64,000 nt of DNA from Candidatus Harrisonbacteria bacterium RIFCSPLOWO2_01_FULL_44_18 (GTDB taxonomy: Bacteria; Patescibacteriota; Minisyncoccia; UBA6257; WO2-44-18), in assembly GCA_001817915.1 (NCBI GenBank), contig MHJJ01000014.1:3695-67694 (forward strand), written 5' to 3'. Below the pieces are notes generated by a model that was given only the letters and a program-made list of their open reading frames with translations, was not told the DNA's origin and searched no databases. This document shows positions 20,340 through 53,809 of this stretch, in pieces. A program made the position numbers and the translations under genes. Every line of letters begins with the position of its first letter. Position 1 is the first letter of the stretch.

Positions 20340-21392
20340 CTATTTTCTCTCGCTTAATATCGCTTTCGCTTCGAATTCTTTGCCTTGTCTCAAGACTTTT
20401 AGTTTTAATACATCGCCGACTTCAAGATTTTCCAGGAAATCCTGAATCGTCTTTTGAGTAGAGATTTTTTCGCCGTTGCATTCCAGAACAATATCTTTTT
20501 CTTTTATGCCTGATTTATCCGCCGGACTATTGTGGATAATGGCGGATGAATGAGGGCCGTGGCTGATAACCAAAGCGCCATAGCCAACCGGCAGATTTAA
20601 TTTTTCCTTAAGATCTTCATCAATGGTAATATAGCGAAGACCAAGAAGCGGCCGGCGGATTCGCCCATGTTCCTTTAGGTCATGAAGGTCTCTTTTTACG
20701 GTATTGATCGGAATAGCAAAGCCGAGATTTTGAGCGCCGAAGACGATAGCCGCGTTGATGCCGATTGCTTCGCCGTCCAGATTAACTAACGGACCGCCGG
20801 AATTCCCCGGATTGATGGCCGCGTCGGTTTGGATCAAGCCGCGCAATTCCTGAAGCGGCTGTTTTGGGCCGATTGCCGCTTGGATTGATCGGGAGAGTCC
20901 GGAAATGATGCCGGCTGAAACTGTATTTTTAAAAAGACCAAGGGCGTTGCCGATAGCCAAAACGGTTTCGCCTAACTCCACCTTCGAAGAATCGCCTAAT
21001 TTAACTATTGGAAGTTTATTGGCCGGCGGATTGATTTTGATGATTGCTACGTCATCGATTGGGTCGCGCGCCAGAATTTGCGCCTTATATTTTTTGTCGT
21101 CATTGGTGATTACGGCATACTCCGCCTCGCCGTCCGAGATGACATGTTTGTTAGTAACAATAATTCCATTGGCATCAACAATAAATCCCGAGCCGCCGCC
21201 GATTTTGACCATCCCGCGCGCGTCAATCATTTCCTCGGGAATTTGAAGATGAGGATCGCCGGAAGGAAATAGCGGCAACAATTCCGGAGGTATTTCTTTT
21301 TCTATCGCCTCAAGACTTTTTGAAATTACAATCGAAACTACCGACGGCATCACTTTTTTAATTGTTTTAGTAAGAGGGGATTTTTCAGCCAT
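20340..21392 (-). CDS. htrA: HtrA/DegP-family serine protease with PDZ domain
   Basis: Trypsin-like blocks GSGFIVDANGIIVTNKHV and GNSGGPLVN, with a C-terminal PDZ domain. Confidence 0.85.
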   Translation of the reverse strand: MAEKSPLTKTIKKVMPSVVSIVISKSLEAIEKEIPPELLPLFPSGDPHLQIPEEMIDARGMVKIGGGSGFIVDANGIIVTNKHVISDGEAEYAVITNDDKKYKAQILARDPIDDVAIIKINPPANKLPIVKLGDSSKVELGETVLAIGNALGLFKNTVSAGIISGLSRSIQAAIGPKQPLQELRGLIQTDAAINPGNSGGPLVNLDGEAIGINAAIVFGAQNLGFAIPINTVKRDLHDLKEHGRIRRPLLGLRYITIDEDLKEKLNLPVGYGALVISHGPHSSAIIHNSPADKSGIKEKDIVLECNGEKISTQKTIQDFLENLEVGDVLKLKVLRQGKEFEAKAILSERK

Positions 21393-21424
21393 GTAATAAA
21401 TTATACCATTTCTATATAAAAATT

Positions 21425-21667
21425 TGGACCTAGCCAGAATCCCCTGCCTGCCGGCAGGCAGGGAACTGGCGTTTCCTCATTGTCCCGACAGCAAAGGTGG
21501 ACCCAAGGAGATTCGAACTCCTGACCTCCACATTGCAAATGTGGCGCTCTAGCCAACTGAGCTATGGGCCCACCTTTACTGTCGTGGATCCTCGACTTCA
21601 TTTTATTATATTTTTTAAAAAAGTGCGTCGGGACAAATGAGGTGTTCTGCCACTGAACTATAGGCCC
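21425..21667 (-). tRNA. interrupted tRNA-Ala(UGC)-like gene with 151-nt insert that contains the intact tRNA-Ala
   Basis: 5' exon 21634-21667: GGGCCTA TA GTTC AGTGGCA GAAC A CCTCA TTTG. 3' exon 21425-21482: CAA TGAGG AAAC GCCAG TTC[22-nt palindrome]GATT CTGGC TAGGTCC A. The acceptor stem pairs with G3:U70. The anticodon loop reads TTTGCAA once the insert is removed. The insert is bounded by 7-bp inverted repeats TCCCGAC/GTCGGGA. Confidence 0.45.
21498..21571 (-). tRNA. tRNA-Ala (anticodon UGC)
   Basis: GGGCCCATAGCTCAGTTGGCTAGAGCGCCACATTTGCAATGTGGAGGTCAGGAGTTCGAATCTCCTTGGGTCCA. G3:U70 Ala identity pair, anticodon loop TTTGCAA. No encoded CCA. Confidence 0.85.
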
Positions 21668-21890
21668 GCCCACTTGATTTATATTATTCGATTGTTTGGA
21701 TTTTCGCCAGACTTTGTTTGCCAATAAAATCTAACGGTTCAACGCGTTGAACCATTAGAGTTTTTTGATTCCTCAACATAATATTTATATTTCTAAACTA
21801 GTTATGCGCGGCATAAAGGAACCGGCGTCAAATACTTCGGGCTTCGGCGAGGCGAAGCTTGCTTACGCTAAAGCTTTGACGAAGCGAATG

Positions 21891-21977
21891 CGGAGACGGG
21901 AGGATTCGAACCTCCGATGCCCTTTCGGGCATACCGCATTTCGAGTGCGGCCCATTCAACCACTCTGGCACGTCTCC
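21891..21977 (-). tRNA. tRNA-Ser (anticodon CGA), type II
   Basis: GGAGACG...CCGCA CTCGAAA TGCGG..., long variable arm TATGCCCGAAAGGGCATC, T-arm GGAGGTTCGAATCCTCC, acceptor 3' strand CGTCTCC, discriminator G. Confidence 0.85.
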
Positions 21978-21979
21978 AA

Positions 21980-22159
21980 TGCCCTCGGGAAGAATCGAAC
22001 CTCCATCCGCGCGTTAGGAGTGCGCTGTTCCCCGCCTGCCATCGCTTGTGCCCCCAGAAAGAATCGAACTCTCATCTTTCCCTTAGGACGGGATTGCTCG
22101 GTCCATTGAGCTATGGGGGCTCAGGCCATGGCGGGCAGTATCCATTGAACTACGAGGGC
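21980..22159 (-). tRNA. interrupted tRNA-Arg(CCU)-like gene with 108-nt insert in the D-loop containing the intact tRNA-Arg
   Basis: 5' exon 22139-22159: GCCCTCG TA GTTC AATGGATA. 3' exon 21980-22030: GAAC A GCGCA CTCCTAA CGCGC GGAT GGAGG TTCGATT CTTCC CGAGGGC A. Acceptor and D stems are perfectly complementary across the insert. The insert is flanked by CCCGCC/GGCGGG. Confidence 0.45.
22049..22120 (-). tRNA. tRNA-Arg (anticodon CCU)
   Basis: GCCCCCA TA GCTC AATGGACC GAGC A ATCCC GTCCTAA GGGAA AGAT GAGAG TTCGATT CTTTC TGGGGGC A. Confidence 0.75.
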
Positions 22160-22167
22160 ACGCAATT

Positions 22168-22196
22168 ATTATATTCGATCTTCGGCAACTTGACAA
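22168..22196 (-). promoter_or_regulatory. promoter of the minus-strand tRNA operon (TTGTCA-17-TATAAT)
   Basis: Minus strand reads TTGTCAAGTTGCCGAAGATCGAATATAAT, 8 nt upstream of the first tRNA-like 5' end at 22159. Confidence 0.5.
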
Positions 22197-22217
22197 ATTA
22201 TGTAGACCTGCTATAAT
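22190..22217 (+). promoter_or_regulatory. divergent promoter (TTGACA-16-TATAAT) for the 22259 gene
   Basis: TTGACAAATTatgtagacctgcTATAAT. Its -35 hexamer overlaps the -35 of the opposing tRNA promoter. Confidence 0.5.
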
Positions 22218-22258
22218 TTGGTTAAAGTGCGATAGTTCCCCGAAGGGGGATTTTTTTT

Positions 22259-22720
22259 ATGAATAAGAACATAGGCATCATATTCATTTTCGCCTTGACT
22301 CTGCCGACAACTTTCGCGGGGCAGCTTTATATTGTCGCCCCAGTCTTTGGTGAAGAAACTAACATTTTGGACATTCTTAGCAATCAAATAGCCGTTAGTT
22401 CTCTTTCGGGCGACATGCCGTTTTTTAATAATTCGGCGAGGATGAACGTTGTTGTCACCGGTTATTCTTCCACTCATGATCAAACAGACAGCACCCCGTT
22501 TATTACTGCTTCAGGGAAGCGGGTGCGGGACGGAATTATCGCCGCTAATTTTTTGAAGTTTGGCGCTCGGATTCAGATTCCGGAAATCTTCGGCGACAAG
22601 ATTTTTGTTGTTGAAGATCGGATGGCTCGCCGGTTTTCTGATCGGGTTGATATTTGGTTTCCGGACAGGGCGACGGCTTTAAAATTCGGGAAAAAAGAAG
22701 TGGAGATTGTTATACTCTAA
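22259..22720 (+). CDS. 3D-domain (MltA/YabE-like) cell-wall-associated protein
   Basis: Signal peptide, then TGYSSTHDQTDSTPFITASGKRVRDGIIAANFLKFGARIQIPE...IFVVEDRMARRFSDRVDIWF, typical of the 3D domain. Confidence 0.6.
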   Translation: MNKNIGIIFIFALTLPTTFAGQLYIVAPVFGEETNILDILSNQIAVSSLSGDMPFFNNSARMNVVVTGYSSTHDQTDSTPFITASGKRVRDGIIAANFLKFGARIQIPEIFGDKIFVVEDRMARRFSDRVDIWFPDRATALKFGKKEVEIVIL

Positions 22721-22772
22721 ATCAGAACCCATTAAAAATTCCTCCTAGGGGAGGAATTTAGAAATGGAGGAA

Positions 22773-23402
22773 TTAGAAATGGAAGGCGGCACCGGTTAAC
22801 AAGAAGAATAAGCCATTTATGGCAAAAGAAATAATCGGACTTAAAAACGGCAAAAGGATTATGACAATCAGCAGGCCGAACATGCCAAGACGGTCAAAGT
22901 TTTGTTGCTGGTGAGGCGAAAGGTTTAAAATTGTCCCCAATAGCTTGGATCCGTCCAAAGGGGGAATGGGTATCAAATTAAACAGGCCGAGGATTAAATT
23001 AATAAAGACCATTAAAGCTAGCAGGGATGTTGCAAGTTCGCCGACGGAAAATAAGAGTAAAAGTCGTAAAATCAATCCGAAGACAATTGCCAAAAGGAAA
23101 TTAGTAGCCACTCCGGCAAATGATACCCAGAACATTCCTTTGCGATAACTGAAAAATCTGCTCGGGTCTATTGGCACCGGTTTTGCTCCGCCGAGAATAA
23201 AAGGCGAGCCCATCAGTATTAGCGCGGCAGGAAGCAAAAGCGACATTAAAGGGTCAATGTGAGGAATCGGATTAAGCGTAAGCCGCCCGGCCAACTTTGC
23301 GGTAGGATCGCCAAATTTCAGCGCCATCCAGCCGTGAGCTATTTCATGTAGAATTGCCGAAAATATGAGGATTGCCAAGACCGTAATCCACCAGACCAGC
23401 AT
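22773..23402 (-). CDS. M50 site-2 protease family protein
   Basis: HEIAHG zinc motif and LNLIPIPPLDG motif. Start set at the ATG at 23402, preceded by AGGAGGTG contributed by the adjacent MITE TIR. Confidence 0.8.
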   Translation of the reverse strand: MLVWWITVLAILIFSAILHEIAHGWMALKFGDPTAKLAGRLTLNPIPHIDPLMSLLLPAALILMGSPFILGGAKPVPIDPSRFFSYRKGMFWVSFAGVATNFLLAIVFGLILRLLLLFSVGELATSLLALMVFINLILGLFNLIPIPPLDGSKLLGTILNLSPHQQQNFDRLGMFGLLIVIILLPFLSPIISFAINGLFFLLTGAAFHF

Positions 23403-23405
23403 GAG

Positions 23406-23630
23406 CCACCTCCTTTCATATAAATCTCTGTCTGACTTCCGATGTCCCCAATATTGATAATTTTCCGAAGGGCAATCGGCTGGAAGCCGATCGGACATCG
23501 GAAGTCTCAATATTAGGACATCCGATATCCGTCCCGATGTTCATCGGGATCGCCTGCGGCGAGAATATAATATTTGGGATATCGGATGTCTGCCAGCAGC
23601 GCGACCGAGAGCTTATATGAAAGGAGGTGG
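23406..23630. mobile_element. MITE-like element with 17-18-bp TIRs (CCACCTCCTTTCATATAA)
   Basis: ccacctcctttcatataa...ttatatgaaaggaggtgg, with internal inverted repeats gacttccgatgtcc/ggacatcggaagtc. Confidence 0.55.
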
Positions 23631-23761
23631 CCGCGCCTCCTCAATTTTCAATGAACCGCAATGTAAGTTAAATTATTGTATAGAATGGTTTCGATGTCAA
23701 AATCAGATAGGTTGTCGCGATTATTGCATATCAGACTTGGATTTATTAAATTATATATTAC

Positions 23762-23835
23762 GGGCCTATAGTGAAGCGGTATCACGGATCCATGGCATGG
23801 ATCAAGTCGGGGTTCGACTCCCCGTAGGTCCACCA
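23762..23835 (+). tRNA. tRNA-Ala (anticodon GGC) with encoded CCA
   Basis: GGGCCTA TA GTGA AGCGGTA TCAC G GATCC ATGGCAT GGATC AAGT CGGGG TTCGACT CCCCG TAGGTCC A CCA. G3:U70 present. Confidence 0.8.
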
Positions 23836-23919
23836 GACAGGAAATTGCAAGCGAGGCGACTGCCCCTGTTTTAGGCAGGCACATTTGGCGGGTTTTTATA
23901 TACTAGAGAAACGGGCGCG

Positions 23920-23948
23920 TTGACTACGCGTCACGGCTTCATATATTA
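23920..23948 (+). promoter_or_regulatory. sigma70-like promoter (TTGACT-17-TATATT) for the GNAT gene
   Basis: TTGACTacgcgtcacggcttcatATATATTAT, with a GGGGGT SD before the ATG at 23982. Confidence 0.45.
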
Positions 23949-23981
23949 TATTTCTGTACGTTGAAAGGGGGTAAGCCGGCT

Positions 23982-24464
23982 ATGATCAAAGTCGCGCTTT
24001 TTAATGAAATTTCCCATGAATTAGGCAATACTCTTCTTGTGGATGTCACAAGCAGGATCGTTGAAAGGATTAATAATCTTTTGAGGCAGTTGTCAGTCAA
24101 CGCTCCATATTGGACTATCGGATGTTTCGCGGAGTTTTTGCGGCAGTCCAATAATCATTTAGTTGTTGCTATTGATGGCAAAATTATTGCTGGTATGGGA
24201 ACGGTTATTTTGAGCTATTCTTTAATGGGCCGTCACGCGAGGATCGAGGATGTGATTGTAGATAAACCATATCTCGGTAAGGGTTTGGGTCGAAAAATTG
24301 TCGAGGAATTAATCAGAATCGCCAACAAGGAAGGAGCAAGATGGATTGATTTAACCAGCAATTCTTCGCGAGTCGGGGCACTGAAGCTTTATAGAAGCTT
24401 GGGATTTAAGGATGTGGCGACAAATTGTTTGCGGCTGGCTTTGGGAGAGCAGGATTCGAGCTAG
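23982..24464 (+). CDS. GNAT-family N-acetyltransferase (C-terminus supplied by a MITE)
   Basis: Acetyl-CoA-binding motif KGLGRKIVEELIRIA. The last 7 codons and the stop codon lie inside the TIR of the 24444 element. Confidence 0.7.
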   Translation: MIKVALFNEISHELGNTLLVDVTSRIVERINNLLRQLSVNAPYWTIGCFAEFLRQSNNHLVVAIDGKIIAGMGTVILSYSLMGRHARIEDVIVDKPYLGKGLGRKIVEELIRIANKEGARWIDLTSNSSRVGALKLYRSLGFKDVATNCLRLALGEQDSS

Positions 24465-24713
24465 CATCAATTTAGTGAGCCAATTCCCGCCCATCTTCTT
24501 TGTTACTCGTCGCTTATGTGCCTATTGGCACACTACGCTCCTCGCGCCTTGAATCTGGACAGGAATTGGCTCACCCGAAGGGAAGAGAGAATTTGAGCCA
24601 AGTTCGAGGAACGACGAGGAGGTTGTGCTGGTAAGCACATCGACGAGGAGTGACAAAGAAATTGGCTCAAATTCTCTCTTCTAAATTTGACGCCAGTTCG
24701 AATCCTGCTCTCC
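24444..24713. mobile_element. MITE-like element with about 33-bp TIRs whose ends resemble a tRNA T-arm/acceptor (GTTCGAATCCTGCTCTCC)
   Basis: ggagagcaggattcgagctagcatcaatttag ... ctaaatttgacgccagttcgaatcctgctctcc. A short copy of about 70 bp lies at 48682-48752. Confidence 0.6.
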
Positions 24714-24759
24714 TAGAGAAATAACCGCGGTTTCAAAAAATTCCCTCGAATGAGGGAAT

Positions 24760-25464
24760 TTAAATTGGATTTTGAATAATGTCGGGGATCATTGATGGAA
24801 CCAGTCCCAAGCGGTTACGCGCGGAACGGGGATCGCAAAACATGATCATAATCTTGTTTGTTCTGAAATGAACGTATGCTTGATATTGAGATAGATCGCC
24901 GTCGCCATTATCGGCGCACCAAATCGCCTGTTCATTAAAAATAAGTTTTTTTCTAAGCAAGCGGCGGATCAGCCAAGTGTAGACGTAGACTACGGCCCTT
25001 TCCCGAATTTGCGTTTCTCCAGTGAAGCGTTCTTCTTGATCGAAAAAACTTTTCCGCAAACTGCCGCTTAGAATCGCCTTTCTTAGCAAATACCACTTGA
25101 GTTCGCAGGTCTCGCGCTTCACGAAATCCATTTTTGTAATATCTGCCGCCTCTTCGCTTAAAATCGAGTTTTTCGCCTGGACAAATTTTACCCCCGGAAT
25201 TTTACCGCATAGAAATATAATCCTATTTATTGTGAGCGGGCGATTGGCGCCGTCTTGAGTTAGGCCCGGGAAGAGCACATAGTCGTCTTTACATTCTATG
25301 AGTTTAGCCGGAGAAAAGGGGATGACATCCAGACGCGTTTTTTCTGGAATAGATAATTTTGTTTTCCAAATCTCGCAGACTTCCATATAATCCATAAAAT
25401 TGTTTCCCATTATTTTTCGAGCGCCCCAGCGGGAGGTTCCATCATCTGTCATTTCGCGCCTCAT
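24760..25464 (-). CDS. hypothetical protein (orphan, in tRNA/MITE hotspot)
   Basis: 234-aa ORF with no recognisable motif. AT-rich upstream region. Confidence 0.5.
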   Translation of the reverse strand: MRREMTDDGTSRWGARKIMGNNFMDYMEVCEIWKTKLSIPEKTRLDVIPFSPAKLIECKDDYVLFPGLTQDGANRPLTINRIIFLCGKIPGVKFVQAKNSILSEEAADITKMDFVKRETCELKWYLLRKAILSGSLRKSFFDQEERFTGETQIRERAVVYVYTWLIRRLLRKKLIFNEQAIWCADNGDGDLSQYQAYVHFRTNKIMIMFCDPRSARNRLGLVPSMIPDIIQNPI

Positions 25465-25559
25465 TGAATTTTTTGATGAACTGCTTAAACTATAAAGATT
25501 AGTGAAAAATTAGTCAATTAGGGGTAAAATATTTTTAAATTGCCCTAAGAAATAAATTT

Positions 25560-25592
25560 GGAAGCGTTGCAGAGTGGACGAATGCACCATTT
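25560..25592 (+). pseudogene. tRNA-Ser 5' fragment (acceptor + D arm duplicate)
   Basis: GGAAGCGTTGCAGAGTGGACGAATGCACC aligns to the first about 30 nt of the adjacent tRNA-Ser. No matching 3' half was found. Confidence 0.4.
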
Positions 25593-25607
25593 GGCTCTAT
25601 TCAAAGC

Positions 25608-25694
25608 GGAGGGTTGGCAGAGTGGTCTAACGCGCCGCACTTGAAATGCGGTTTCCCGGAAACGGGATCACAGGTTCGAATCCTGTACCCTCCG
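25608..25694 (+). tRNA. tRNA-Ser (anticodon UGA), type II
   Basis: Acceptor GGAGGGT/ACCCTCC, anticodon arm CCGCA CTTGAAA TGCGG, long variable arm, T-arm ACAGGTTCGAATCCTGT. Flanked by 12-bp inverted repeats tctattcaaagc/gctttgaataga. Confidence 0.85.
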
Positions 25695-25768
25695 CTTTGA
25701 ATAGAAACTTGTCCTCCGAAGGAGGATCCGCCTCCGGTGGAAAATGCGGTATCGCAACCAAAAAGAAA

Positions 25769-25790
25769 AACTCCGCGTTGCGGAGTTTTT
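25769..25790 (+). terminator. rho-independent terminator
   Basis: ctccgcgttgcggag hairpin followed by TTTTT. Confidence 0.55.
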
Positions 25791-26400
25791 ATAATGAGGG
25801 TTTTCCGGGCAATTCATGGCATTTGTAACAACGGACTTCGTAAGTTTCTTTGCCGCCGACCCGGATCAAAGGAGCATGGTAAGCCGCCGGTTTTCCTCTG
25901 ATTAGCCGTTGTGGTAATCTTGCCGGTTTTTTACAGCGGCCGCAGTGGGCGGCATCGCGCCTATCAATGCCGTCAGCCAAGGCCATCAAAAGAGGAGTTG
26001 AACCAAAGGGTTCGCCACGAAAATCCAGATCAAGGCCGGCCGCGATGACATCGTATCCCGCGGCGCAAATTTCACTTACCACCAGGTGTAAATTCGATGC
26101 CGCTGAAAAAAATTGAACTTCGTCCATGGCCGCCACATTAAAATGGCGCGTTCGTCCTAAAATTCGCAGCATTTTTTCCGGCTTATCAGTCTCAATTTCA
26201 TGAGCCGCCATTTTATTGCCATCGGCGCTTTCGATAAAACCTCGTTGACTGCGGGTGTCAATGCTGGGCTTAAACACAATCACTTTTCGCCCGCCATATT
26301 CCCTAAGCCGTTTAATTCGGCGAATAAGCTCATCGGTTTTTCCCGAAAACATTGTGCCGGTGATCACTGTCAACTTTCCTCTTGTGATTTTTTTGTTCAT
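25789..26400 (-). CDS. tdk: thymidine kinase
   Basis: P-loop GTMFSGKTDELIRR and C-terminal zinc ribbon CxxC...CxxC. Start set at the ATG at 26400 with a GAGGGGAG SD. The upstream extension of the long ORF lies in a MITE. Confidence 0.8.
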   Translation of the reverse strand: MNKKITRGKLTVITGTMFSGKTDELIRRIKRLREYGGRKVIVFKPSIDTRSQRGFIESADGNKMAAHEIETDKPEKMLRILGRTRHFNVAAMDEVQFFSAASNLHLVVSEICAAGYDVIAAGLDLDFRGEPFGSTPLLMALADGIDRRDAAHCGRCKKPARLPQRLIRGKPAAYHAPLIRVGGKETYEVRCYKCHELPGKPSL

Positions 26401-26754: not shown

Positions 26755-29373
26755 ATGATTACCAAAGAAACTTTGCGAAAATCTTTTTGGGCTTTGCCGG
26801 TTCACGAGGCGCTTGACGCGCTTGAAACTACTGCCAGCGGGTTGATGCGGGATGAAGCAGAAGAGCGTCTTAGGGTTTTCGGGAAAAACGTTTTAGCCAA
26901 AAGGATAAGAATAACTAAATTAAAAATTCTTGTCAGGCAGTTCGGAAGCCCGCTGATTTTTCTTTTGTTAATTGCCGGCGGCGTTACTTTGTTTTTGAAG
27001 GATTTTAAGGATGCCGGATTTATTCTTGCCGCCGCTTTAATAAACGCGATTTTGGGATTTTATCAAGAAAGCAAAGCCGAGACGGCGTTGGCGCATTTAA
27101 GAACTTACATCAGAGAACGCAATCGCGTATTTAGAGATAATCACGAGATAGAAGTTGATTCCAGCGAATTAGCGCCGGGAGACGTCATCCATTTATCTCA
27201 AGGGGATCGGATACCCGCGGACTGCCGATTAATTTATGTCAACGATTTTGCCGTTGATCAAGCGATTTTAACCGGCGAATCCCTGCCGGTTTCTAAAGAT
27301 ATCAAGCCCGCCAGTTTTCAGGCAGTCCTCGCGGATCAGAATTCAATGGTCTTTAGCGGCACGGTGGCGGTACAGGGGTTTGCCAATGCCGTTGTTTCCG
27401 CTACCGGCAAATACACCGAATTGGGGAAAATCGCCGCTCTAGTCGCGAGGCCGGAAAAGGAACGCACTCCTCTTCGCGAGGCAATAAATAAATTCAGTAT
27501 TAAGGCCAGCATTATTTTGATCGGATTAACGGCCCTGATTTTTTCGCTCGGCGTTTTGACGGGAAGTTCATTGCTGGATATGTTTTTGATTTCGGTGGCG
27601 ATCGTAGTTTCGGCGATACCGGAAGGATTGCCAATCGCGATGACCGTCATTTTGGCGGTAGGCGTGCAAAGATTGGCGTGGAAAAAAGGAATTGTCCGCA
27701 AATTGCTCGCGGCGGAAACAATGGGCAGCACCTCGGTAATTTTGACTGATAAGACCGGCACCTTGACTGAAGCCAAGATGGAACTTTCGGAAATAAAAGT
27801 TTATAAGGAGGACCGCGCGGAAGAGCGGAAAGAAACGATATTAAAACTCGCCATCCTTAATAGCGACGTGGTGATAGAAAATCCCGGCGATTCGCCTTTT
27901 GACTGGGAAATTATTGGCCGGCCGCTGGAGGTGGCGATTGTCAGATCGGCGGCCAAATTTGATATTTTGGCGCCGGATGTTCGTAAGAAAATGAAAGCCG
28001 TCGATTATCTTCCATTTAGTTCCGTAAATAAATTTTCGGCAAACGTTATTCAGCAAGGTTCGAAATATTTACTTAGCGTGTTCGGCGCGCCGGAAATTTT
28101 ATTAAAATTTTCTAATTTGCCCGATAATTCGCGCCGCCAAATTCATAGAGATGTCGACAAGGTCGCCTATGGCGGCGCGAGAGTTTTAGCAGTCGCGACA
28201 AAAGAATTATCGGGCATTGAAGGAGTTTCGCTTCGCCAGAAAGAAATTTTTAAAGATTTGGATTTTTTGGGAACAATGTCTTTTAGGGACCCGATTCGCA
28301 AAGAAGTCAGAGACGCGGTTAATCGGGTCGCTCAAGCCGGTGTCCGCACTTTAATTGTCACGGGAGATCATCGCGGCACCGCGGAGTTTGTAGCTAAAGA
28401 AGTCGGCATTTCTATTGATGGCGATAGTGTCATTGACGGCGCTGAACTTGACGCGCTGAACGATGAAGATCTTAAAAATAGACTTCCGAATTTAAGGATT
28501 GTTTCGCGGGTAAGTCCGGAAGGAAAATTGAGGATAGTTAAAGCGCTTCAGGGGATAGGGGAGATTGTGGCAATGACCGGCGACGGCGTGAATGACGCCC
28601 CAAGTTTAAAGGAAGCTGATATCGGCGTTAGCATGGGTTCGGGCACCGATGTTGCTAAAGATGTATCGGATTTAGTTTTGCTTGACGATAATTTTGAAAC
28701 CATCGTGGAAGCCGTGGCTGAGGGCCGAAGGATTATACAAAATATCAGAAAAGTAATCGTTTATCTGCTTTCAAATGCTTTGGACGGATTGATTTTAATT
28801 GGCGGGTCCTTGCTTATCGGCTTGAGCTTGCCGTTGAACGCGCTGCAGATTCTTTGGGTTAATTTTTTTACCGATAGTTTTCCGGCAATCGCCTTGGCTT
28901 TTGAAAAAAAGATTGACCATTGGGTTGATCGTCCCGCGCCAATCCATAAAGGATTGCTTGACTCGGAAATGAGATTTTTGATTCAAGTGATCGGAGCGCT
29001 CACGAGTGTTTTGCTTTTGGTTTTATACGTTGGCTTGCTTTATTTGGGTATTGAAGAAAAATTGGTTCACACTTTTATCTTTGCCGCCTTTGGGACATAC
29101 AGTTTGTTTTTGGTTTTCGCGGTTCGAAGTTTGAGACGGAGTATTTTCACTTATAATCCTTTTTCAAACCCCGCGCTTTTGGGAAGCGTGATTTTAGGAT
29201 TGGGATTAATGGCGATCGCGATTTACGTTCCTTTTCTCCAAAAATTATTCGGCACCATGCCCTTGCCGTTAAACTGGCTCTGGGGCATCGTGGGTTTGGG
29301 AATTTTGAATGTCTTCGCGATTGAGTTTGGAAAGTGGGTTTTTAGAAAAAAACAACTAACAACTAACAACTAA
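26755..29373 (+). CDS. cation-transporting P-type ATPase (P2-type, Ca2+/Mg2+-like)
   Basis: DKTGTLT phosphorylation motif, TGDGVNDAPSLK, TGES and about 10 TM helices. The C-terminus and stop codon run into a heptamer tandem repeat. Confidence 0.9.
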   Translation: MITKETLRKSFWALPVHEALDALETTASGLMRDEAEERLRVFGKNVLAKRIRITKLKILVRQFGSPLIFLLLIAGGVTLFLKDFKDAGFILAAALINAILGFYQESKAETALAHLRTYIRERNRVFRDNHEIEVDSSELAPGDVIHLSQGDRIPADCRLIYVNDFAVDQAILTGESLPVSKDIKPASFQAVLADQNSMVFSGTVAVQGFANAVVSATGKYTELGKIAALVARPEKERTPLREAINKFSIKASIILIGLTALIFSLGVLTGSSLLDMFLISVAIVVSAIPEGLPIAMTVILAVGVQRLAWKKGIVRKLLAAETMGSTSVILTDKTGTLTEAKMELSEIKVYKEDRAEERKETILKLAILNSDVVIENPGDSPFDWEIIGRPLEVAIVRSAAKFDILAPDVRKKMKAVDYLPFSSVNKFSANVIQQGSKYLLSVFGAPEILLKFSNLPDNSRRQIHRDVDKVAYGGARVLAVATKELSGIEGVSLRQKEIFKDLDFLGTMSFRDPIRKEVRDAVNRVAQAGVRTLIVTGDHRGTAEFVAKEVGISIDGDSVIDGAELDALNDEDLKNRLPNLRIVSRVSPEGKLRIVKALQGIGEIVAMTGDGVNDAPSLKEADIGVSMGSGTDVAKDVSDLVLLDDNFETIVEAVAEGRRIIQNIRKVIVYLLSNALDGLILIGGSLLIGLSLPLNALQILWVNFFTDSFPAIALAFEKKIDHWVDRPAPIHKGLLDSEMRFLIQVIGALTSVLLLVLYVGLLYLGIEEKLVHTFIFAAFGTYSLFLVFAVRSLRRSIFTYNPFSNPALLGSVILGLGLMAIAIYVPFLQKLFGTMPLPLNWLWGIVGLGILNVFAIEFGKWVFRKKQLTTNN

Positions 29374-29457
29374 CAACTAACAACTAACAACTAACAACTA
29401 ACAACTAACAACTAACAACTAACAACTAACAACTAACAACTAACAACTAACAACTAA
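29351..29457. repeat. tandem heptamer (CAACTAA) x about 15
   Basis: aacaactaacaactaac... perfect copies covering the ATPase stop codon and the 3' end of convergent comF. Confidence 0.9.
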
Positions 29458-30167
29458 ACCTTGGCTATTACCAGTCCGATGACTCTTGCCGCGCCGGCTT
29501 TTCGTAAAATTTTTACTGCTTCGTTCATAGTACTGCCGGAAGTAAATACGTCATCGATCGGGATTATCTTTTTGCCCTTAATCAACTCCGGATTTTTTAC
29601 CGCGAAGCATCCGGCAATGTTCTCTTGCCTTTTTTCTAATCCTTTTATTTCCGGCTGGGGCTTAGTATTTTTTATTCTGATTAAATTGCCGGTCATCAAT
29701 TTCACGCCAAGGGTTTTGCTGATTTCTTCGGCAATGGCTTCAGATTGATTAAACCCGCGCCCCCTTTCTCGAGAAGGATGAAGCGGGATCGGGATAATCA
29801 AACTTGCGGGACTTATTGGCCTTATAGGCCCTATGTAGGCCAGCAGGATTTTCGCCAGCGGTTTGGCGGCGCATTTTTGTTTTTTGTACTTGAGCCGCCA
29901 AATCAGTTTTTTTACTTTTTCATCGTCATAGGACGTTGCCGCGCCCAATAAGTAGGAGTCTTTTTTGTGGCAGACTTTTTTATTGTCGGCTAATCTTGCC
30001 CGACAGATCGAGCAATACAACGCGGTATTTATAGGAATAGAATTAAAACAAGAAGCGCAGATATATTCTTCCTTTTCGGTTTTTTGAAGAGCTTTTTCGC
30101 AAATCAAACAAATCGGCGGGGAGAGAATATCCAAAACAGCGCCTTTTAATCTTATTAAGTAATTCAT
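29454..30167 (-). CDS. comF: ComF-family competence protein (double zinc ribbon + phosphoribosyltransferase domain)
   Basis: N-terminal PPICLICEKAL...CASCF zinc ribbon, and a C-terminal PRTase motif KKIIPIDDVFTSGSTM. Confidence 0.75.
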   Translation of the reverse strand: MNYLIRLKGAVLDILSPPICLICEKALQKTEKEEYICASCFNSIPINTALYCSICRARLADNKKVCHKKDSYLLGAATSYDDEKVKKLIWRLKYKKQKCAAKPLAKILLAYIGPIRPISPASLIIPIPLHPSRERGRGFNQSEAIAEEISKTLGVKLMTGNLIRIKNTKPQPEIKGLEKRQENIAGCFAVKNPELIKGKKIIPIDDVFTSGSTMNEAVKILRKAGAARVIGLVIAKV

Positions 30168-30390: not shown

Positions 30391-31470
30391 ATGGCTTTCG
30401 ATTTTTTTAAATCTTTACTCGGCGCCCAAAATTATTTGGCGGTTGATATCGGCACTACTTCGATAAAGGTTTTAGAATTTTCAAAAAAATCCAACGGCCG
30501 GCCGGCTCTTCGCAATTACGGATTTTTGGAAACCTACGGCTATCTGGAAAGATTTAATGAAGCCCTTCAAACCAGTAGTTTGAAAATGCTTGATGTGGAG
30601 GCGGCGAAGTATTTAAAAATAGTTTTGGATCGCGCCGGAATCAAGTCGCGGTCGGCGGTCGCGTCCATACCCGCCTTTATGGCCTTTACCACTTTAATCG
30701 AACTGCCAATGATGAGCGAAGCTGAAACTTCGCAGACAATGGATTTTCAGGCAAAACAGTATATTCCCATCCCGGTAAAAGCGGCCGCGATTGATTGGAT
30801 AAAGATAGGCGAACGCGAGGACGAAGAGGGGCGAAAGAGACAGCAAGTTTTTTTGATTTCCGTTCCAAAGGAACAAATTGAAAAATATCAAAAGATTTTC
30901 CGGCTAGCCGGTTTGAAATTAGCCGCTTTGGAAATCGAGGGTTTGAGTCTTGCTCGAGCGCTTAGCCGAGGCATTAAAGAGCCGGTTTTGATTGTTGATA
31001 TCGGCGCTCGTTCAACCAGCCTGACCGTCGGAGTAGACGGGCTTTTGAGATTCGCCGGTCAAACCGATTTTGCCGGCGGCTCCTTGACTCAAGCAGTGGC
31101 TTCGGGTTTGGGCATCGCCGCCCGACGAGCTGAAGAATTGAAGTGGCGGAAGGGCTTAATCGCCACCGGCGGCGAGCAAGAGTTATCCACACTGATGCTA
31201 CCGTTTTTAGATGTTATAATTAATGAGGCGAAAAGAGTCAAGCAGAATTACGAAACCAGTTATCAGAATAAGATAGCCGCGGTTATTTTGGCGGGAGGCG
31301 GGGCAAATTTGTTGGGTATAGAGAAATATTTTGGTCAACAGATAGAACTGCCGGCATCTTTAGCCGCTCCCTTCAAAGAGATTGACTATCCGCCGGAGAT
31401 TGCCTCGTTAATCAAAGATTTGGGACCGGCATTTTCAGCCGCGATAGGACTAGGGATGAAAGGGCTATAA
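30391..31470 (+). CDS. pilM: type IV pilus assembly ATPase-like protein PilM
   Basis: Actin-like fold signature LAVDIGTTSIKVLEF. Position at the head of the pilus operon. Confidence 0.85.
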   Translation: MAFDFFKSLLGAQNYLAVDIGTTSIKVLEFSKKSNGRPALRNYGFLETYGYLERFNEALQTSSLKMLDVEAAKYLKIVLDRAGIKSRSAVASIPAFMAFTTLIELPMMSEAETSQTMDFQAKQYIPIPVKAAAIDWIKIGEREDEEGRKRQQVFLISVPKEQIEKYQKIFRLAGLKLAALEIEGLSLARALSRGIKEPVLIVDIGARSTSLTVGVDGLLRFAGQTDFAGGSLTQAVASGLGIAARRAEELKWRKGLIATGGEQELSTLMLPFLDVIINEAKRVKQNYETSYQNKIAAVILAGGGANLLGIEKYFGQQIELPASLAAPFKEIDYPPEIASLIKDLGPAFSAAIGLGMKGL

Positions 31471-31612
31471 CGAAGTAATCGCGAACAACGCGAATCTATG
31501 CAAAATAATGCTAATAATTTATTCGCGTTATTTCGAATCAGATTAGCATTATTCGCGATTACTCCGATTCGTGTTATTTTGAAACAAATTAGCATTATTC
31601 GCGATTACTCCG
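31471..31612 (+). repeat. 145-bp structured intercistronic element, copy 1 (pilM stop to pilN start)
   Basis: cgaagtaatcgcgaacaacgcgaa...aatgctaataatttattcgcgttatttcgaatcagattagcattattcgcgattactccgATG, with several internal inverted repeats. Near-identical copies lie at 34958-35108 and 36183-36331. Confidence 0.85.
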
Positions 31613-32146
31613 ATGAATCAAAATCTTGTTGATAAATTTGAAACGGAAAGATTGCCGACCGGGTGGCCATGGCGGTTATTTTTGTTCAGTTTTTTGCTTT
31701 TCGCGGCGACGGTCGTCAGTTATTTTGGTTTGTCATTGGGCTATAAGCCGTTTTTAAACAGGCAAATTGCCGGAAAGGAAGCGGAAGTTAATCAATTGGC
31801 GGCGGCCGTTCCCGAAGCCGAGCAGGAAAATTTTATTAGATTTTATTCTCAATTGGCGAATTTGGAGAAAGTCTTAAACAACCATGTTGTTTCTTCCGCC
31901 CTCTTTCCATTTTTAGAAAGAAATACCAACGTCCAGATATATTACAATATCTTGGATTTCAGCGCTTCGGAGAAGAGATTGACTTTGGATGGCGTTGCTC
32001 AAAACTACGATATTTTAGCGCAGCAGCTCGAGGCTTTCACTCAAGCTAAAGAGGTTGAGCGGTTTTTAATCAATGAATCGCAATTAAGCGAAGGAAAAAT
32101 AAGATTTCGGGTATCGCTATTTTTAGCGCCGCAAGTATTGAGATAA
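31613..32146 (+). CDS. pilN: type IV pilus assembly protein PilN-like
   Basis: Single N-terminal TM, then a coiled-coil periplasmic domain. Position after pilM. Confidence 0.6.
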   Translation: MNQNLVDKFETERLPTGWPWRLFLFSFLLFAATVVSYFGLSLGYKPFLNRQIAGKEAEVNQLAAAVPEAEQENFIRFYSQLANLEKVLNNHVVSSALFPFLERNTNVQIYYNILDFSASEKRLTLDGVAQNYDILAQQLEAFTQAKEVERFLINESQLSEGKIRFRVSLFLAPQVLR

Positions 32147-34957: not shown

Positions 34958-35108
34958 TATAATTAACGAAGTAATCGCGAACAACGCGAACCTATGCAAA
35001 ATAATGCTAATAATTTATTCGCGTTATTTCGAATCAAATTAGCATTATTCACGATTACTCCGATTCGTGTTATTTTGAAACAAATTAGCATTATTCGCGA
35101 TTACTCCG
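34958..35108 (+). repeat. 145-bp structured intercistronic element, copy 2 (pilB stop to pilT start)
   Basis: About 95 % identical to copy 1. Confidence 0.85.
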
Positions 35109-36182
35109 ATGGACGATTACAAACAAAAACTAGATGAATTACTGTTGACTACGGCGAAACAGAACGCTTCGGATCTTCATTTGGCCGTCGGTCGCCGTCC
35201 GACTTTAAGGATTGACGGCGCTTTAGTGCCTTTGCAAAAAGAGACGATATTAACTCCCGAGTCAGCCGAGGGTTTGATCAGCGCCTTTTTAACGCCGGAG
35301 CAAAAGGAAGAATTTCTAAAAAATAAGGAGCACGATCTTTCCTATTCTTTTGAAGACAAAGCCCGGTTTCGCGTCAATGTTTTTTATCAGCGGGGATTTA
35401 TGGCCGCCGCTTTGCGCTTGATACCGGCTCAAATAAGGACAGTCGAAGAACTTAATTTGCCGCCAGTCTTGCACGATTTTACCCGTCTTTCTCAAGGTTT
35501 TGTTTTACTTGTCGGTCCGGCCGGCCACGGCAAATCTACAACGATGGCCGCGCTGGCGGATGAAATCAATCATCAGCGCACCGCTCATATCATTAGCATT
35601 GAAGATCCCATTGAGTATTTATTTTCTCAAGATCGGAGCATTATTTCTCAAAGAGAGGTGAGAAATGATACGCCGGATTTTCACAAAGCGCTCCGTTCTG
35701 TTTTAAGACAAGACCCGGATGTGGTGATAATCGGCGAAATGCGCGACCCGGAGTCAATCTCAACGGCGCTGACGGCCGCCGAAACCGGCCACTTGGTTTT
35801 TTCAACGCTTCATACCAATTCCGCCTCCCAAACGATAGATAGAATTATTGATAGTTTTCCGCCCGCCCAACAGAGCCAGATTACATCTCAATTATCCGCC
35901 ACATTAGTCGGCATTGTTTCTCAACGTTTAATTCCGCGGGTTGACGGCGGCCGTATGCCGGCTTGCGAAGTAATGCTCGTTAATTCGGCGATCAGAAATT
36001 TGATCCGCGAGAGAAAGGCGTATCAAATTGATTTGGTGATTGAAACCAGCATGCAGGAAGGAATGTTAACTCTTAACCGTTCTTTAATCGGTTTGGTGAA
36101 AAAGAGGCAGATTTCAATTGAAAACGCGGAGCTTTATTCATTGAACCCGAGCGAGTTGAGGATATTATTGGAGAGAACATAA
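35109..36182 (+). CDS. pilT: twitching motility ATPase PilT
   Basis: Walker A GPAGHGKSTTMAA; PilT-type retraction ATPase blocks. Confidence 0.9.
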   Translation: MDDYKQKLDELLLTTAKQNASDLHLAVGRRPTLRIDGALVPLQKETILTPESAEGLISAFLTPEQKEEFLKNKEHDLSYSFEDKARFRVNVFYQRGFMAAALRLIPAQIRTVEELNLPPVLHDFTRLSQGFVLLVGPAGHGKSTTMAALADEINHQRTAHIISIEDPIEYLFSQDRSIISQREVRNDTPDFHKALRSVLRQDPDVVIIGEMRDPESISTALTAAETGHLVFSTLHTNSASQTIDRIIDSFPPAQQSQITSQLSATLVGIVSQRLIPRVDGGRMPACEVMLVNSAIRNLIRERKAYQIDLVIETSMQEGMLTLNRSLIGLVKKRQISIENAELYSLNPSELRILLERT

Positions 36183-36331
36183 CGAAGTAATCGCGAACAA
36201 CGCGAACCTATGCAAAATAATGCGAATACTGTTAACGGAGCAATCGCTAATAATGCGAATTTTGGCAAAATAATGCTAATAATTTATTCGCGTTATTTTG
36301 AATCAGATTAGCATTATTAGCGATTACTTCG
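36183..36331 (+). repeat. structured intercistronic element, copy 3 (variant; pilT stop to pilC start)
   Basis: Same 5' block taacgaagtaatcgcgaacaacgcgaacctatgcaaaataatgc and same 3' block aatgctaataatttattcgcgttattttgaatcagattagcattatt. The central segment is diverged. Confidence 0.8.
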
Positions 36332-48664: not shown

Positions 48665-48681
48665 CGTCAATCCCGCGCCTA

Positions 48682-48752
48682 GGAGAGCAGGATTCGAACT
48701 AGCGTCAAATTTAGAAGAGAGAATTTGAGCCAAGTTCGAATCCTGCTCTCCT
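48682..48752. mobile_element. short copy of the tRNA-end-like MITE (GGAGAGCAGGATTCGAAC TIRs)
   Basis: ggagagcaggattcgaactagcgtcaaatttagaagagagaatttgagccaagttcgaatcctgctctcc. Confidence 0.6.
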
Positions 48753-48756
48753 ATTA

Positions 48757-53711: not shown

Positions 53712-53742
53712 CAACCCCCGCAACAAAATTTTTACTTTAATT

Positions 53743-53805: not shown

Positions 53806-53809
53806 AGAT

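What the first reader, a model, noticed from the sequence alone, without database searches (positions are those of the whole stretch)
25560..25710. tRNA-Ser(UGA) preceded by a 30-nt duplicate of its own 5' end and bracketed by 12-bp inverted repeats
GGAAGCGTTGCAGAGTGGACGAATGCACC (25560-25592) aligns base-for-base with the acceptor and D arm of the adjacent intact tRNA-Ser (GGAGGGTTGGCAGAGTGGTCTAACGCGCC). The intact gene itself is flanked by tctattcaaagc / gctttgaataga.

Together with the tRNA-Met/Ile2 5' fragment at 53743 and the two nested loci, four of eleven tRNA genes in this window show upstream 5'-half duplications. This points to a recurrent process acting on tRNA genes: integration at tRNA 5' halves, or abortive versions of the nesting seen at the Ala and Arg loci. 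I looked for a matching 3' half (CGCTTCC acceptor strand) downstream and did not find one.
Basis: seen in the sequence. Interest (0 to 1): 0.6.

Follow-up and report, generated by a model that had tools for sequence, protein, structure and literature searches.

The report
Leftover front half of replaced tRNA-Ser
The short tRNA-like piece in front of this serine tRNA gene is most likely the leftover front end of an older serine tRNA gene that a newer copy replaced on the spot, and similar leftovers and tRNA-inside-tRNA arrangements recur in this group of tiny groundwater bacteria.

Summary
Window 25560-25588 is a serine-type tRNA 5' part. A perfect 12-bp inverted repeat (25596-25607 / 25694-25705) brackets the intact tRNA-Ser(UGA). 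The fragment matches that gene at 21/29, a level no shuffle reached.

It is probably not a copy of the adjacent gene. It matches the syntenic tRNA-Ser(UGA) of a relative better (L180, 26/29, identical acceptor strand GGAAGCG). The intact gene is closest to the window's own tRNA-Ser(CGA) (78%, identical anticodon stem). My best reading is a relic of the ancestral gene, replaced in situ by a paralogous or foreign copy that now uses the old promoter and terminator.

The Met locus is stronger support. Its fragment matches the resident tRNA found at that position in two relatives.

The 12-bp repeat is a leader-trailer extension of the acceptor stem. It also occurs on non-nested tRNAs, so it marks no mobile-element end specific to this locus.

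Similar upstream 5' relics occur in five other Patescibacteria loci fetched here. Breaks fall in the D loop (20-22) or the anticodon loop (35/36 in three cases), often with small G+C-clamped hairpins inserted.

No integrase, group I intron or archaeal-type junction was found. The DNA-level mechanism is unresolved. I found no published description.

The parts
25502..25530 (+). Weak sigma-70-like promoter match (GTGAAA-17-TAAAAT) that would start transcription about 25 nt before the fragment
   Evidence: 9 of 12 matches; a consensus match only
25560..25595 (+). Relic 5' part of an older tRNA-Ser gene. Acceptor 5' strand GGAAGCG is at 25560-25566 and the D arm at 25569-25585 (D stem GCA/TGC). The anticodon-stem 5' strand starts at CCATT and homology is lost in the anticodon loop.
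   Evidence: 21/29 to the adjacent gene, 0 of 200 shuffles reach this; 26/29 to the L180 orthologue
25596..25607 (+). Leader arm TCTATTCAAAGC of the 12-bp leader-trailer helix, stacking directly on the acceptor stem
   Evidence: (paired in the minimum-free-energy and centroid folds)
25608..25694 (+). Intact tRNA-Ser(UGA), class II, acceptor GGAGGGT/ACCCTCC, discriminator G at 25694, no encoded CCA
   Evidence: (56.6 bits against a gathering score of 29)
25694..25705 (+). Trailer arm GCTTTGAATAGA of the helix; it starts at the discriminator base
25706..25745 (+). Two-hairpin module AAACTTGTC-[CCTCC GAA GGAGG]-ATC-[CCGCC TCC GGTGG]-AAAAT. It may be the decayed variable arm plus 3' acceptor strand of the old gene (CGCCTCCG at 25729-25736, 6 of 7 complementary to GGAAGCG, then G73, T arm missing). 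It may instead be an independent conserved element.
   Evidence: inconclusive
25766..25790 (.). Hairpin terminator with A and T runs on both sides. It lies between the tRNA unit on the + strand and the thymidine kinase gene on the - strand.
   Evidence: scored on the - strand; T run also on the + strand

Best explanation
The window comes from a Candidatus Harrisonbacteria genome (Patescibacteria/CPR). An ancestral tRNA-Ser(UGA) gene sat at this position next to the thymidine kinase and P-type ATPase genes. A second, complete tRNA-Ser(UGA) gene became lodged inside that gene's transcription unit, at or near its anticodon loop. This newer gene has a different acceptor stem and is most similar to the genome's own tRNA-Ser(CGA). 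It took over the function.

The old gene then decayed. Its first 31-36 nt survive as a leader-embedded pseudogene fragment. Its 3' half is lost or unrecognisable.

Inferred present-day working: transcription starts at the old promoter. The 12-bp leader-trailer helix clamps the ends of the new tRNA and keeps it folding independently of the relic. It may also offer a double-strand processing site. RNase P and 3' trimming release the tRNA and CCA is added afterwards. The relic itself probably does nothing.

What is shown: the fragment, the helix, the closer similarity to a relative's syntenic gene than to the adjacent gene, and recurrence at other loci and in other lineages. What is inferred: the direction of events, the loss of the 3' half, the processing steps, and how the new gene got there.

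A promoterless tRNA copy is expressed only if it lands in a transcribed non-coding unit. It is tolerated inside an essential single-copy tRNA gene only if it replaces that gene's function. That would explain why the nested pairs whose anticodons can be read (Arg/Arg, Ala/Ala) share an anticodon and why the Ser relic is of the same amino-acid type as its neighbour.
For: Fragment statistics: 21/29, reached elsewhere only by a real tRNA-Ser, in 0 of 200 shuffles.

Orthology: L180 (ATPase 63% identical) carries tRNA-Ser(UGA) upstream of the same TK-ATPase pair in the same orientation. Its first 29 nt match the fragment at 26/29, including the whole acceptor strand. L001 matches at 23/29.

The intact window gene is 78% identical to the window tRNA-Ser(CGA), with an identical anticodon stem CCGCA/TGCGG. 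It is 71-74% identical to the three syntenic UGA genes.

Parallel case with clear polarity: L178 and L179 keep MurD-tRNA-Asp downstream of MurD and an initiator-like tRNA-Met followed by a second tRNA-Met (MetB) upstream. The window Met fragment with its hairpin removed matches MetB at 25-26 of 29. The window's intact Met2 has a different acceptor stem.

Promoter logic: a strong promoter (TTGTCA-17-TATAAT) sits just upstream of the outer Arg 5' end and a terminator follows tRNA-Ser(CGA).

No outer tRNA-Ser can be rebuilt by any single deletion, even at 80% of ARAGORN's thresholds. The Rfam tRNA model does not score the fragment.

Recurrence: L181 tRNA-Ser(UGA) has a 16-bp leader-trailer helix. 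About 220 nt upstream lies a 35/36-identical copy of its own first 36 nt, ending after G35 and carrying two D-loop hairpins, with no 3' half. L092, L098, L084 and L179 show similar fragments.

The sequence is identical in ten further contigs from separate assemblies.
Against: The closest relative available (L161, ATPase 85% identical) has neither a tRNA-Ser nor the fragment here, so the ancestral state is not directly seen.

tRNA-level identities are noisy over 29-88 nt. The fragment matches the L181 orthologue at only 20/29.

The fragment could instead be the incoming piece.

In L181 and L092 the upstream copy is nearly identical to the intact gene. Those look like recent partial duplications rather than replacement by a different gene, so more than one process may be at work.

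In register the fragment has GCT at the anticodon position without U33 or a purine at 37. Its isoacceptor identity is therefore not proven.

The two-hairpin module downstream shows compensatory differences from L161. That argues it is a selected element rather than a neutral 3' relic.
Confidence: 0.6

Rival explanations
1. The fragment is the newcomer. A short piece of a related organism's tRNA-Ser gene was taken up, since these bacteria carry competence and type IV pilus genes, and was joined just upstream of the native gene by homology-assisted illegitimate recombination. This would be a failed replacement rather than a completed one.
For: The fragment is nearly identical to a relative's gene (26/29 to L180). 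ComF-like, pilus and secretion ATPase genes are in the window. L161 lacks the fragment.
Against: At the Met locus the fragment type is the one that occupies the syntenic position in both relatives examined, which points the other way. The fragment sits exactly where a resident gene's 5' end would follow a promoter-like site. Nested loci keep both outer halves, which abortive uptake does not explain.
Confidence: 0.12
2. The upstream half and the leader-trailer helix form a functional leader. The 5' half-copy would compete with the true 5' half for the tRNA's 3' half, or bind a processing factor, and so tune maturation of the downstream tRNA.
For: The L181 upstream copy is 35/36 identical to the functional gene despite carrying two hairpin insertions. 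Leader-trailer helices of different sequence flank the syntenic tRNA-Ser(UGA) in three lineages: window 12 bp, L181 16 bp, L001 7 bp. Upstream 5' copies dominate over the other orientations.
Against: The window fragment would pair poorly with the intact gene's 3' acceptor strand (4 of 7 by my reading of the sequences). L180 and L161 lack any such leader. Fragment lengths, break points and spacers differ between loci. No alternative fold involving the fragment appears in the minimum-free-energy or centroid structures.
Confidence: 0.1
3. The outer gene is a working disrupted tRNA. The hairpin-bounded insert, inner tRNA included, would be removed at the RNA level by an undescribed bacterial tRNA splicing or trans-joining pathway. 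The matching 3' half would be the decayed-looking downstream segment or would lie elsewhere.
For: The outer Arg is a flawless cloverleaf once the insert is removed. The nests fold as stacked cloverleaves on long stems. Inserts sit at loop positions, as in archaeal non-canonical introns. G+C-rich complementary arms recall split-tRNA leaders.
Against: No 3' half can be rebuilt for Ser. The inner and outer Arg both carry CCT, and the outer Ala reads TGC, like its inner gene, only if the insert sits between 35 and 36, so the outer genes look redundant. The outer Ala also carries a 20-nt palindrome in its T loop. The L156 outer and middle anticodon loops cannot be restored to 7 nt with U33. I saw no bulge-helix-bulge geometry at the junctions when reading the sequences and folds. 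No group I core was found.
Confidence: 0.07
4. The fragment is an attachment-site remnant. An integrase-driven element integrated into the tRNA gene, duplicated part of it and was later almost entirely deleted.
For: Partial tRNA genes beside complete ones are the usual footprint of integrative elements (PMC9897764). Anticodon-loop break points match a known integrase sublocation, from my own knowledge of Williams 2002. L092 shows a direct repeat of at least 33 nt of upstream flank plus 23 nt of tRNA 5' end, bracketing a short insert.
Against: In the window the fragment is a 5' part, differs from the intact gene at 8 of 29 positions, and has an acceptor strand the intact gene's 3' strand could not pair with. 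Only 19 nt separate them. No integrase or recombinase domain appears among neighbouring genes.
Confidence: 0.06

Closest known systems
Partial tRNA genes left by integrative elements (attL/attR duplications at genomic islands; PMC9897764; Williams 2002, cited from my own knowledge)
   Same: A non-functional partial tRNA gene lies beside a complete gene of the same type. Break points fall in tRNA loops.
   Different: Here the partial copy is the 5' part and lies 19 nt upstream rather than kilobases away. It is not identical to the complete gene. No integrase or island is present.
tRNA gene turnover by duplication, anticodon shift and loss ('remolding'; from my own knowledge, not checked in the library)
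   Same: The functional tRNA-Ser(UGA) looks like a relative of the genome's CGA isoacceptor, with an identical anticodon stem and 78% identity. It appears to have displaced the orthologous UGA gene.
   Different: The replacement sits inside the old gene's own transcription unit and leaves a nested or truncated relic in place. That arrangement is not part of the described remolding cases as I know them.
Archaeal disrupted tRNA genes: non-canonical introns, split and permuted tRNAs (PMC4390854 and PMC4033280, seen here only as search-result titles and abstracts)
   Same: Inserts lie in the D loop, anticodon loop and T loop. G+C-rich complementary arms flank them. tRNA halves are separated by other sequence.
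   Different: This is a bacterial genome. I saw no bulge-helix-bulge junction. The insert carries a whole redundant tRNA. Several outer genes are visibly damaged.
Group I introns at position 35/36 of Patescibacteria tRNA genes (PMC13011429)
   Same: Same phylum, and the same unusual position for three of the breaks: window Ala, L181 Ser and L092 Thr.
   Different: No group I core was detected. The inserts are 110-150 nt and contain a tRNA. The base before the break is G, not the U that group I splicing needs.
Leader-trailer helices of rRNA operons and hairpin intervening sequences of rRNA removed by RNase III (from my own knowledge; PMC10250234 seen only as a search-result title and abstract)
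   Same: A long helix is formed by the sequences flanking a stable RNA. Hairpin inserts sit at loop tips of a structured RNA gene.
   Different: Here they flank or interrupt tRNAs. Cleavage by RNase III is only assumed.

Membership tests
Integrative-element att-site tRNA fragment | The fragment is an identical or near-identical direct repeat of part of the complete gene | tested here: not met
   21/29 to the adjacent gene. The acceptor strands differ: GGAAGCG against GGAGGGT.
Integrative-element att-site tRNA fragment | An integrase and element DNA lie between or beside the copies | tested here: not met
   19 nt separate fragment and gene. Neighbouring genes carry no recombinase domains: GlmS-like, HtrA-like, M50 peptidase, GNAT, TK, ATPase, ComF-like and pilus genes.
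Integrative-element att-site tRNA fragment | The duplicated part is usually the 3' portion, from the anticodon or T loop to the 3' end | tested here: not met
   The fragment is the 5' acceptor strand, the D arm and the start of the anticodon stem.
Group I intron-containing tRNA gene | A group I catalytic core lies between the exons | tested here: not met
   Rfam found only tRNAs in the window at gathering scores, and nothing intron-like at E up to 10 in 21300-26000 or in L181.
Group I intron-containing tRNA gene | A matching 3' exon completes the tRNA | tested here: not met
   No deletion construct gives a tRNA that uses the fragment.
Archaeal-type spliced or split tRNA | A bulge-helix-bulge motif at the exon-intron junctions | tested here: not met
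   Reading the junctions against the folds shows continuous helices or irregular internal loops, not 3-4-3 bulge-helix-bulge geometry. This was by inspection, with no dedicated detector.
Archaeal-type spliced or split tRNA | A tRNA splicing endonuclease and ligase are encoded | not tested
   Only part of the genome is available. No search for EndA or RtcB was made.
tRNA pseudogene relic of an in situ gene replacement | The fragment is orthologous to the tRNA gene at the syntenic position in relatives | tested here: met
   26/29 to L180 and 23/29 to L001, both with tRNA-Ser(UGA) in the neighbourhood of the TK and ATPase genes (directly beside TK in L001, one gene away in L180). It is 20/29 to L181. 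The Met locus gives 25-26 of 29 to MetB in L178 and L179.
tRNA pseudogene relic of an in situ gene replacement | The fragment cannot make a tRNA, and a functional gene for the same anticodon is present | tested here: inconclusive
   That the fragment cannot make a tRNA is met, and an intact tRNA-Ser(UGA) is adjacent. That the relic itself once carried UGA is inferred from orthology only; in register it reads GCT.
tRNA pseudogene relic of an in situ gene replacement | The functional gene is not the vertical descendant of the ancestral gene | tested here: inconclusive
   It is 78% identical to the window tRNA-Ser(CGA) against 71-74% to UGA orthologues that are 71-81% identical to one another. 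The sequences are too short for a firm phylogeny.

The most novel reading that the evidence does not exclude
Patescibacteria may carry an undescribed process that places hairpin-bounded DNA segments, some loaded with a complete tRNA gene, into the loop positions of tRNA genes: D loop 20-22, anticodon loop 35/36, T loop 56/57. This would produce Russian-doll tRNA genes up to three deep in L156. After recombination or decay it would leave the upstream 5' relics seen here. In the boldest version some outer genes are still expressed through a bacterial tRNA-splicing or two-piece-tRNA route that is not group I.
Probability: 0.3. Interest if true: 0.85.

Novelty: new variant of a known kind. Interest (0 to 1): 0.6.

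Why it matters
tRNA gene fragments in prokaryotes are normally read as scars of large integrating elements. Here fragments and whole-gene nests arise at a scale of tens of bases, with no integrase, at defined loop positions, in genomes with minimal and mostly single-copy tRNA sets.

If general, this has three consequences.
- It describes a route of tRNA gene turnover in which an essential gene is replaced without ever being absent.
- It warns that standard tRNA finders miss or miscount genes in these genomes. Neither outer gene in the window is called by ARAGORN or Rfam.
- It points to an active family of small hairpin elements that target structured-RNA genes.

It also gives a concrete test for whether bacteria have any tRNA splicing that is not group I.

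Tried and rejected
- Chance similarity. Rejected by the sliding-probe and shuffle test.
- Assembly artefact. Rejected: ten further contigs from ENA, JGI and Logan assemblies are 100% identical.
- Rebuilding an outer tRNA-Ser. I deleted every segment from 25581-25608 to 25693-25744 and ran ARAGORN at 100, 90 and 80% thresholds. There were no hits.
- Scoring the fragment as a truncated tRNA with Rfam, placing it at the end of the searched stretch. No hit.
- A distant 3' half. Exact CGCTTCC sites in the window lack any T-arm context.
- Direct ancestral state. The closest relative L161 lacks the gene. Relatives found through HtrA have lost synteny on the tRNA side. The genome and metagenome scans found nothing above about 60% protein identity.
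- The CCCCG...CGGGG-CAAG motif as a family signature. The 9-mer occurs at about the chance rate overall, 36 seen against 29 expected. Only the three tRNA-embedded copies are meaningful.
- Group I remnants in the L181 spacer. None found.
- Simple tandem duplication for L181. The sequence after the two copies differs and the upstream flanks are only loosely related. It does fit L092.
- Literature searches for nested tRNA genes, tRNA introns in this phylum and tRNA gene fragments found nothing describing this.

Full report
**What is there**

ARAGORN and Rfam agree on nine tRNA genes in the window, including tRNA-Ser(UGA) at 25608-25694/5. Upstream, 25560-25588 reads GGAAGCGTTGCAGAGTGGACGAATGCACC. 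Without gaps it matches the first 29 nt of the adjacent gene at 21 positions.

Sliding that 29-nt probe over both strands, the only other site reaching 21 is the genuine tRNA-Ser(CGA). None of 200 shuffles reached 21. In register the fragment has an acceptor 5' strand, U8, a perfect 3-bp D stem (GCA/TGC) and a class II D loop. It is therefore a real serine-type tRNA 5' part. Homology fades after CCATT, where the anticodon stem would begin.

The 12-bp inverted repeat is exact: 25596-25607 and 25694-25705. Its trailer arm starts at the discriminator base, so it extends the acceptor stem coaxially. It is paired in both the minimum-free-energy and centroid folds.

**Organism and reliability**

Neighbouring genes encode proteins with these Pfam domains or best relatives: GlmS-like, HtrA-like, an M50 peptidase, a GNAT, thymidine kinase, a P-type ATPase, ComF-like and type IV pilus proteins. 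The HtrA-like protein is identical to one named from Candidatus Harrisonbacteria RIFCSPHIGHO2_01_FULL. The 21.3-25.9 kb region is 100% identical in ten further contigs from ENA, JGI and Logan assemblies. These arrangements are therefore not assembly artefacts.

**The inverted repeat is a general pre-tRNA feature**

Most give 0-5 bp. The exceptions are:
- L181 tRNA-Ser(UGA), 16 bp
- window inner tRNA-Ala(UGC), 14 bp
- window tRNA-Ser(UGA), 12 bp
- window tRNA-Asp, 10 bp
- L128 tRNA-Thr, 8 bp
- L001 tRNA-Ser(UGA) and L124 tRNA-Tyr, 7 bp each

tRNA-Asp is not nested. By synteny it is the orthologue of the Asp genes of L178 and L179, which lack the helix. Three of the four tRNA-Ser(UGA) genes found next to TK/ATPase carry a helix of unrelated sequence. 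That looks like a selected structure rather than the ends of one mobile element.

**The fragment is not a copy of its neighbour**

L180 (ATPase 63% identical) has tRNA-Ser(UGA) upstream of the same TK-ATPase pair in the same orientation. Its first 29 nt match the window fragment at 26 positions, including the complete acceptor strand GGAAGCG. The L001 orthologue matches at 23 and the L181 orthologue at 20.

The window's intact gene has acceptor GGAGGGT/ACCCTCC. It is 71-74% identical to these three UGA genes but 78% identical to the window's own tRNA-Ser(CGA), with which it shares the anticodon stem CCGCA/TGCGG exactly.

A pseudogene fragment that resembles an outgroup orthologue more than the working gene does is what a replacement predicts. 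The sequences are short, so this is suggestive rather than conclusive.

**The Met locus gives the direction of events**

L178 and L179 conserve MurD with tRNA-Asp downstream. Upstream they carry an initiator-like tRNA-Met followed by a second CAU tRNA (MetB), GCCGGCGTAGCTCAATGGTAGAGCGAGCG... in L178 and GTCGGCG... in L179.

The window has the initiator-like gene, then GCCGGCGTAGCTCAGCGGCA, then a 33-nt hairpin insert, then GAGCGAGCC, then a complete Met2 with a different acceptor stem (GGCTGGG). With the hairpin removed, the fragment matches MetB at 25-26 of 29. There the fragment is clearly the old resident gene and the complete gene is the newcomer.

**The nests**

Removing a 108-nt insert from the D loop yields a canonical outer tRNA-Arg(CCT) around an inner tRNA-Arg(CCT). 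A strong promoter sits just before the outer 5' end and a terminator follows the next gene, tRNA-Ser(CGA).

The outer Ala has G3:U70. Its anticodon loop is interrupted, by my reading between 35 and 36. That placement restores TTTGCAA and a UGC anticodon, though the deletion scan alone leaves the anticodon ambiguous. The insert is about 150 nt and carries the inner tRNA-Ala(UGC). A perfect 20-nt palindrome lies in the outer T loop. The same palindrome type, CCTGCCTGCCGG(C/T)AGGCAGG, occurs downstream of tRNA-Met in L178.

The series runs Arg (outer intact), Ala (outer carrying an extra insert), Ser (3' half unrecognisable) and Met (3' half gone). It reads as progressive decay of displaced genes.

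**Is a 3' relic present at the Ser locus?**

After the trailer comes AAACTTGTC, a hairpin CCTCC-GAA-GGAGG, ATC, then CGCCTCCG. MAFFT aligns the hairpin with the variable arms of the serine tRNAs. It aligns CGCCTCCG with their 3' acceptor strand plus G73, with the T arm missing. CGCCTCC pairs with GGAAGCG at 6 of 7 positions.

Such an 8-mer with one mismatch is expected about 0.06 times in 80 nt. L161 has the same two-hairpin module with compensatory differences and no tRNA. I leave this open.

**Recurrence elsewhere**

For each tRNA I searched 400 nt on either side for copies of its own ends. Copies of the 5' end lying upstream were the dominant class.
- L181: a copy of the first 36 nt of tRNA-Ser(UGA), 35/36 identical, ends exactly after G35. 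It has two hairpins in its D loop and no 3' half downstream.
- L092: a direct repeat of at least 33 nt of upstream flank plus the first 23 nt of tRNA-Thr(UGU). There is a D-loop insert, then the sequence resumes and stops after G35.
- L098: 5' and 3' Thr fragments flank a complete tRNA-Thr inside a CCCAGAAA/TTTCTGGG repeat. The two fragments do not match each other.
- L084: a Tyr 5' fragment with a D-loop hairpin.
- L179: a 20-nt copy of the initiator-like tRNA's 5' end.
- L156: three tRNA frames nested, with perfect 12-13-bp bounding repeats. One repeat, CCCCGCACTAAA, is the same as the arms of the hairpin in the window's Met fragment.

All of these are Patescibacteria-type loci.

**Mechanism**

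What can be said is limited. Inserts and breaks sit at cloverleaf loop positions: 20-22, 35/36 and 56/57. The genome also contains hairpins nested within hairpins outside tRNAs, at 48680-48753 and 24439-24718. It has a 227-bp element with terminal inverted repeats that is 99% identical at three sites.

These facts fit a DNA-level process that places palindromic segments into hairpin tips. Selection would then remove every hit on a working tRNA unless the insert supplies the same function. Where inner and outer copies are near-identical, recombination between their 3' halves would delete one copy and leave a 5'-only relic. That is my inference and was not tested. L092 fits a partial tandem duplication or an att-type duplication better. 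More than one route is likely.

**What it is not**

No group I core was found. I saw no bulge-helix-bulge junctions on inspecting the folds. No recombinase domain appears among the genes nearby. The known explanation for partial tRNA genes is integration of elements of 9-23 kb (PMC9897764), and it does not fit the window locus.

The one paper on tRNA introns in this phylum describes group I introns at 35/36 and nothing like these nests (PMC13011429). Other searches found no description.

**Verdict**

The fragment is best read as a pseudogene relic of an in situ tRNA gene replacement. The inverted repeat is a leader-trailer helix. The single locus is modest in itself. The pattern it belongs to appears undescribed and is worth a systematic survey.

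Noticed in passing
window 21985-22158 (- strand): A complete tRNA-Arg(CCT) (22048-22120) with an imperfect flanking helix of about 14 bp sits in the D loop of a second, otherwise canonical tRNA-Arg(CCT). A strong promoter precedes the outer 5' end, and tRNA-Ser(CGA) follows 2 nt after the outer 3' end.
   Followed up: partly
window 21430-21672 (- strand): tRNA-Ala(UGC) is nested in the anticodon loop of an outer Ala-type gene (G3:U70), by my reading between 35 and 36. The outer T loop carries the perfect palindrome CCTGCCTGCCGGCAGGCAGG (21443-21462). The inner gene's 17-bp leader-trailer helix is itself split by a 46-nt A+T-rich segment that has a TATAAT box and is flanked by a duplicated CGAC.
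   Followed up: partly
window 53743-53809: A 5' fragment of the ancestral second tRNA-Met/Ile2-type gene, orthologous to MetB of L178 and L179. A 33-nt hairpin insert, CCCCGCACTAAAACAAGTTTAGTACGGGGCAAG, lies in its D loop. The fragment is truncated in the anticodon stem just before the complete Met2.
   Followed up: yes
L156 3757-4102 (also L155): Three tRNA frames are nested like Russian dolls. The innermost is tRNA-Val(CAC). The bounding repeats are perfect: CCCCGTTACAAAT/ATTTGTAACGGGG and CCCCGCACTAAA/TTTAGTGCGGGG. An additional empty hairpin is present. The anticodon loops of the outer two cannot be restored to a normal 7 nt. Tetranucleotide correlation with the window is 0.98, so this is the same or a sister genome.
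   Followed up: partly
window 23405-23631; L154 5880-6106; L156 3164-3390: A 227-bp element with terminal inverted repeats GCCACCTCCTTTCATATAA and several internal hairpins. It is 99% identical at three unrelated sites. Each end reads outward as a strong ribosome-binding site (AAAGGAGGTG) a few bases before a start codon. Several assemblies break at or inside this element.
   Followed up: partly
window 48680-48753 and 24439-24718: A palindromic element whose arms, TAGGAGAGCAGGATTCGAAC...GTTCGAATCCTGCTCTCCTA, look like a tRNA T loop plus 3' acceptor strand. One copy has a 10-nt loop. The other has the same arms around 210 nt made of two further hairpins.
   Followed up: partly
window 25706-25745 and L161 ~826-872: A two-hairpin module with conserved linkers (AAACTTGTC, ATC, GAAAAT) and compensatory stem differences between two genomes at 85% protein identity. 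It lies just before a shared terminator. It could be a small structured RNA or an exapted tRNA remnant.
   Followed up: partly
L181 2089-2560 (- strand); L092 1-290; L098 6917-7165; L084 7410-7565; L179 3003-3071: Further Patescibacteria loci with 5' tRNA fragments upstream of a complete tRNA of the same type (Ser, Thr, Thr, Tyr, initiator-like Met). Breaks fall after G35 or in the D loop, and several have a hairpin inserted at D-loop position 20-22.
   Followed up: partly
window 53652-53724; L178 617-690: The initiator-like tRNA-Met (C1 opposite A72) has an unusual T loop, TGCAATT (TGCAACT in L178), in place of TTCRANY. In the window gene the anticodon stem (CAAGG/CCTTG) also lacks the usual three consecutive G-C pairs.
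   Followed up: no
window 29337-29471: A perfect tandem array of the 7-nt unit AACAACT, about 19 copies, lies between the ATPase and ComF-like genes. Other short A-rich 5-7-nt arrays lie at 50177-50221, 55061-55091 and 56545-56589.
   Followed up: no
window 31467-31615, 34963-35111, 36179-36380: A repeat of about 148 nt with three to four copies, 72-98% identical, within 5 kb.
   Followed up: no
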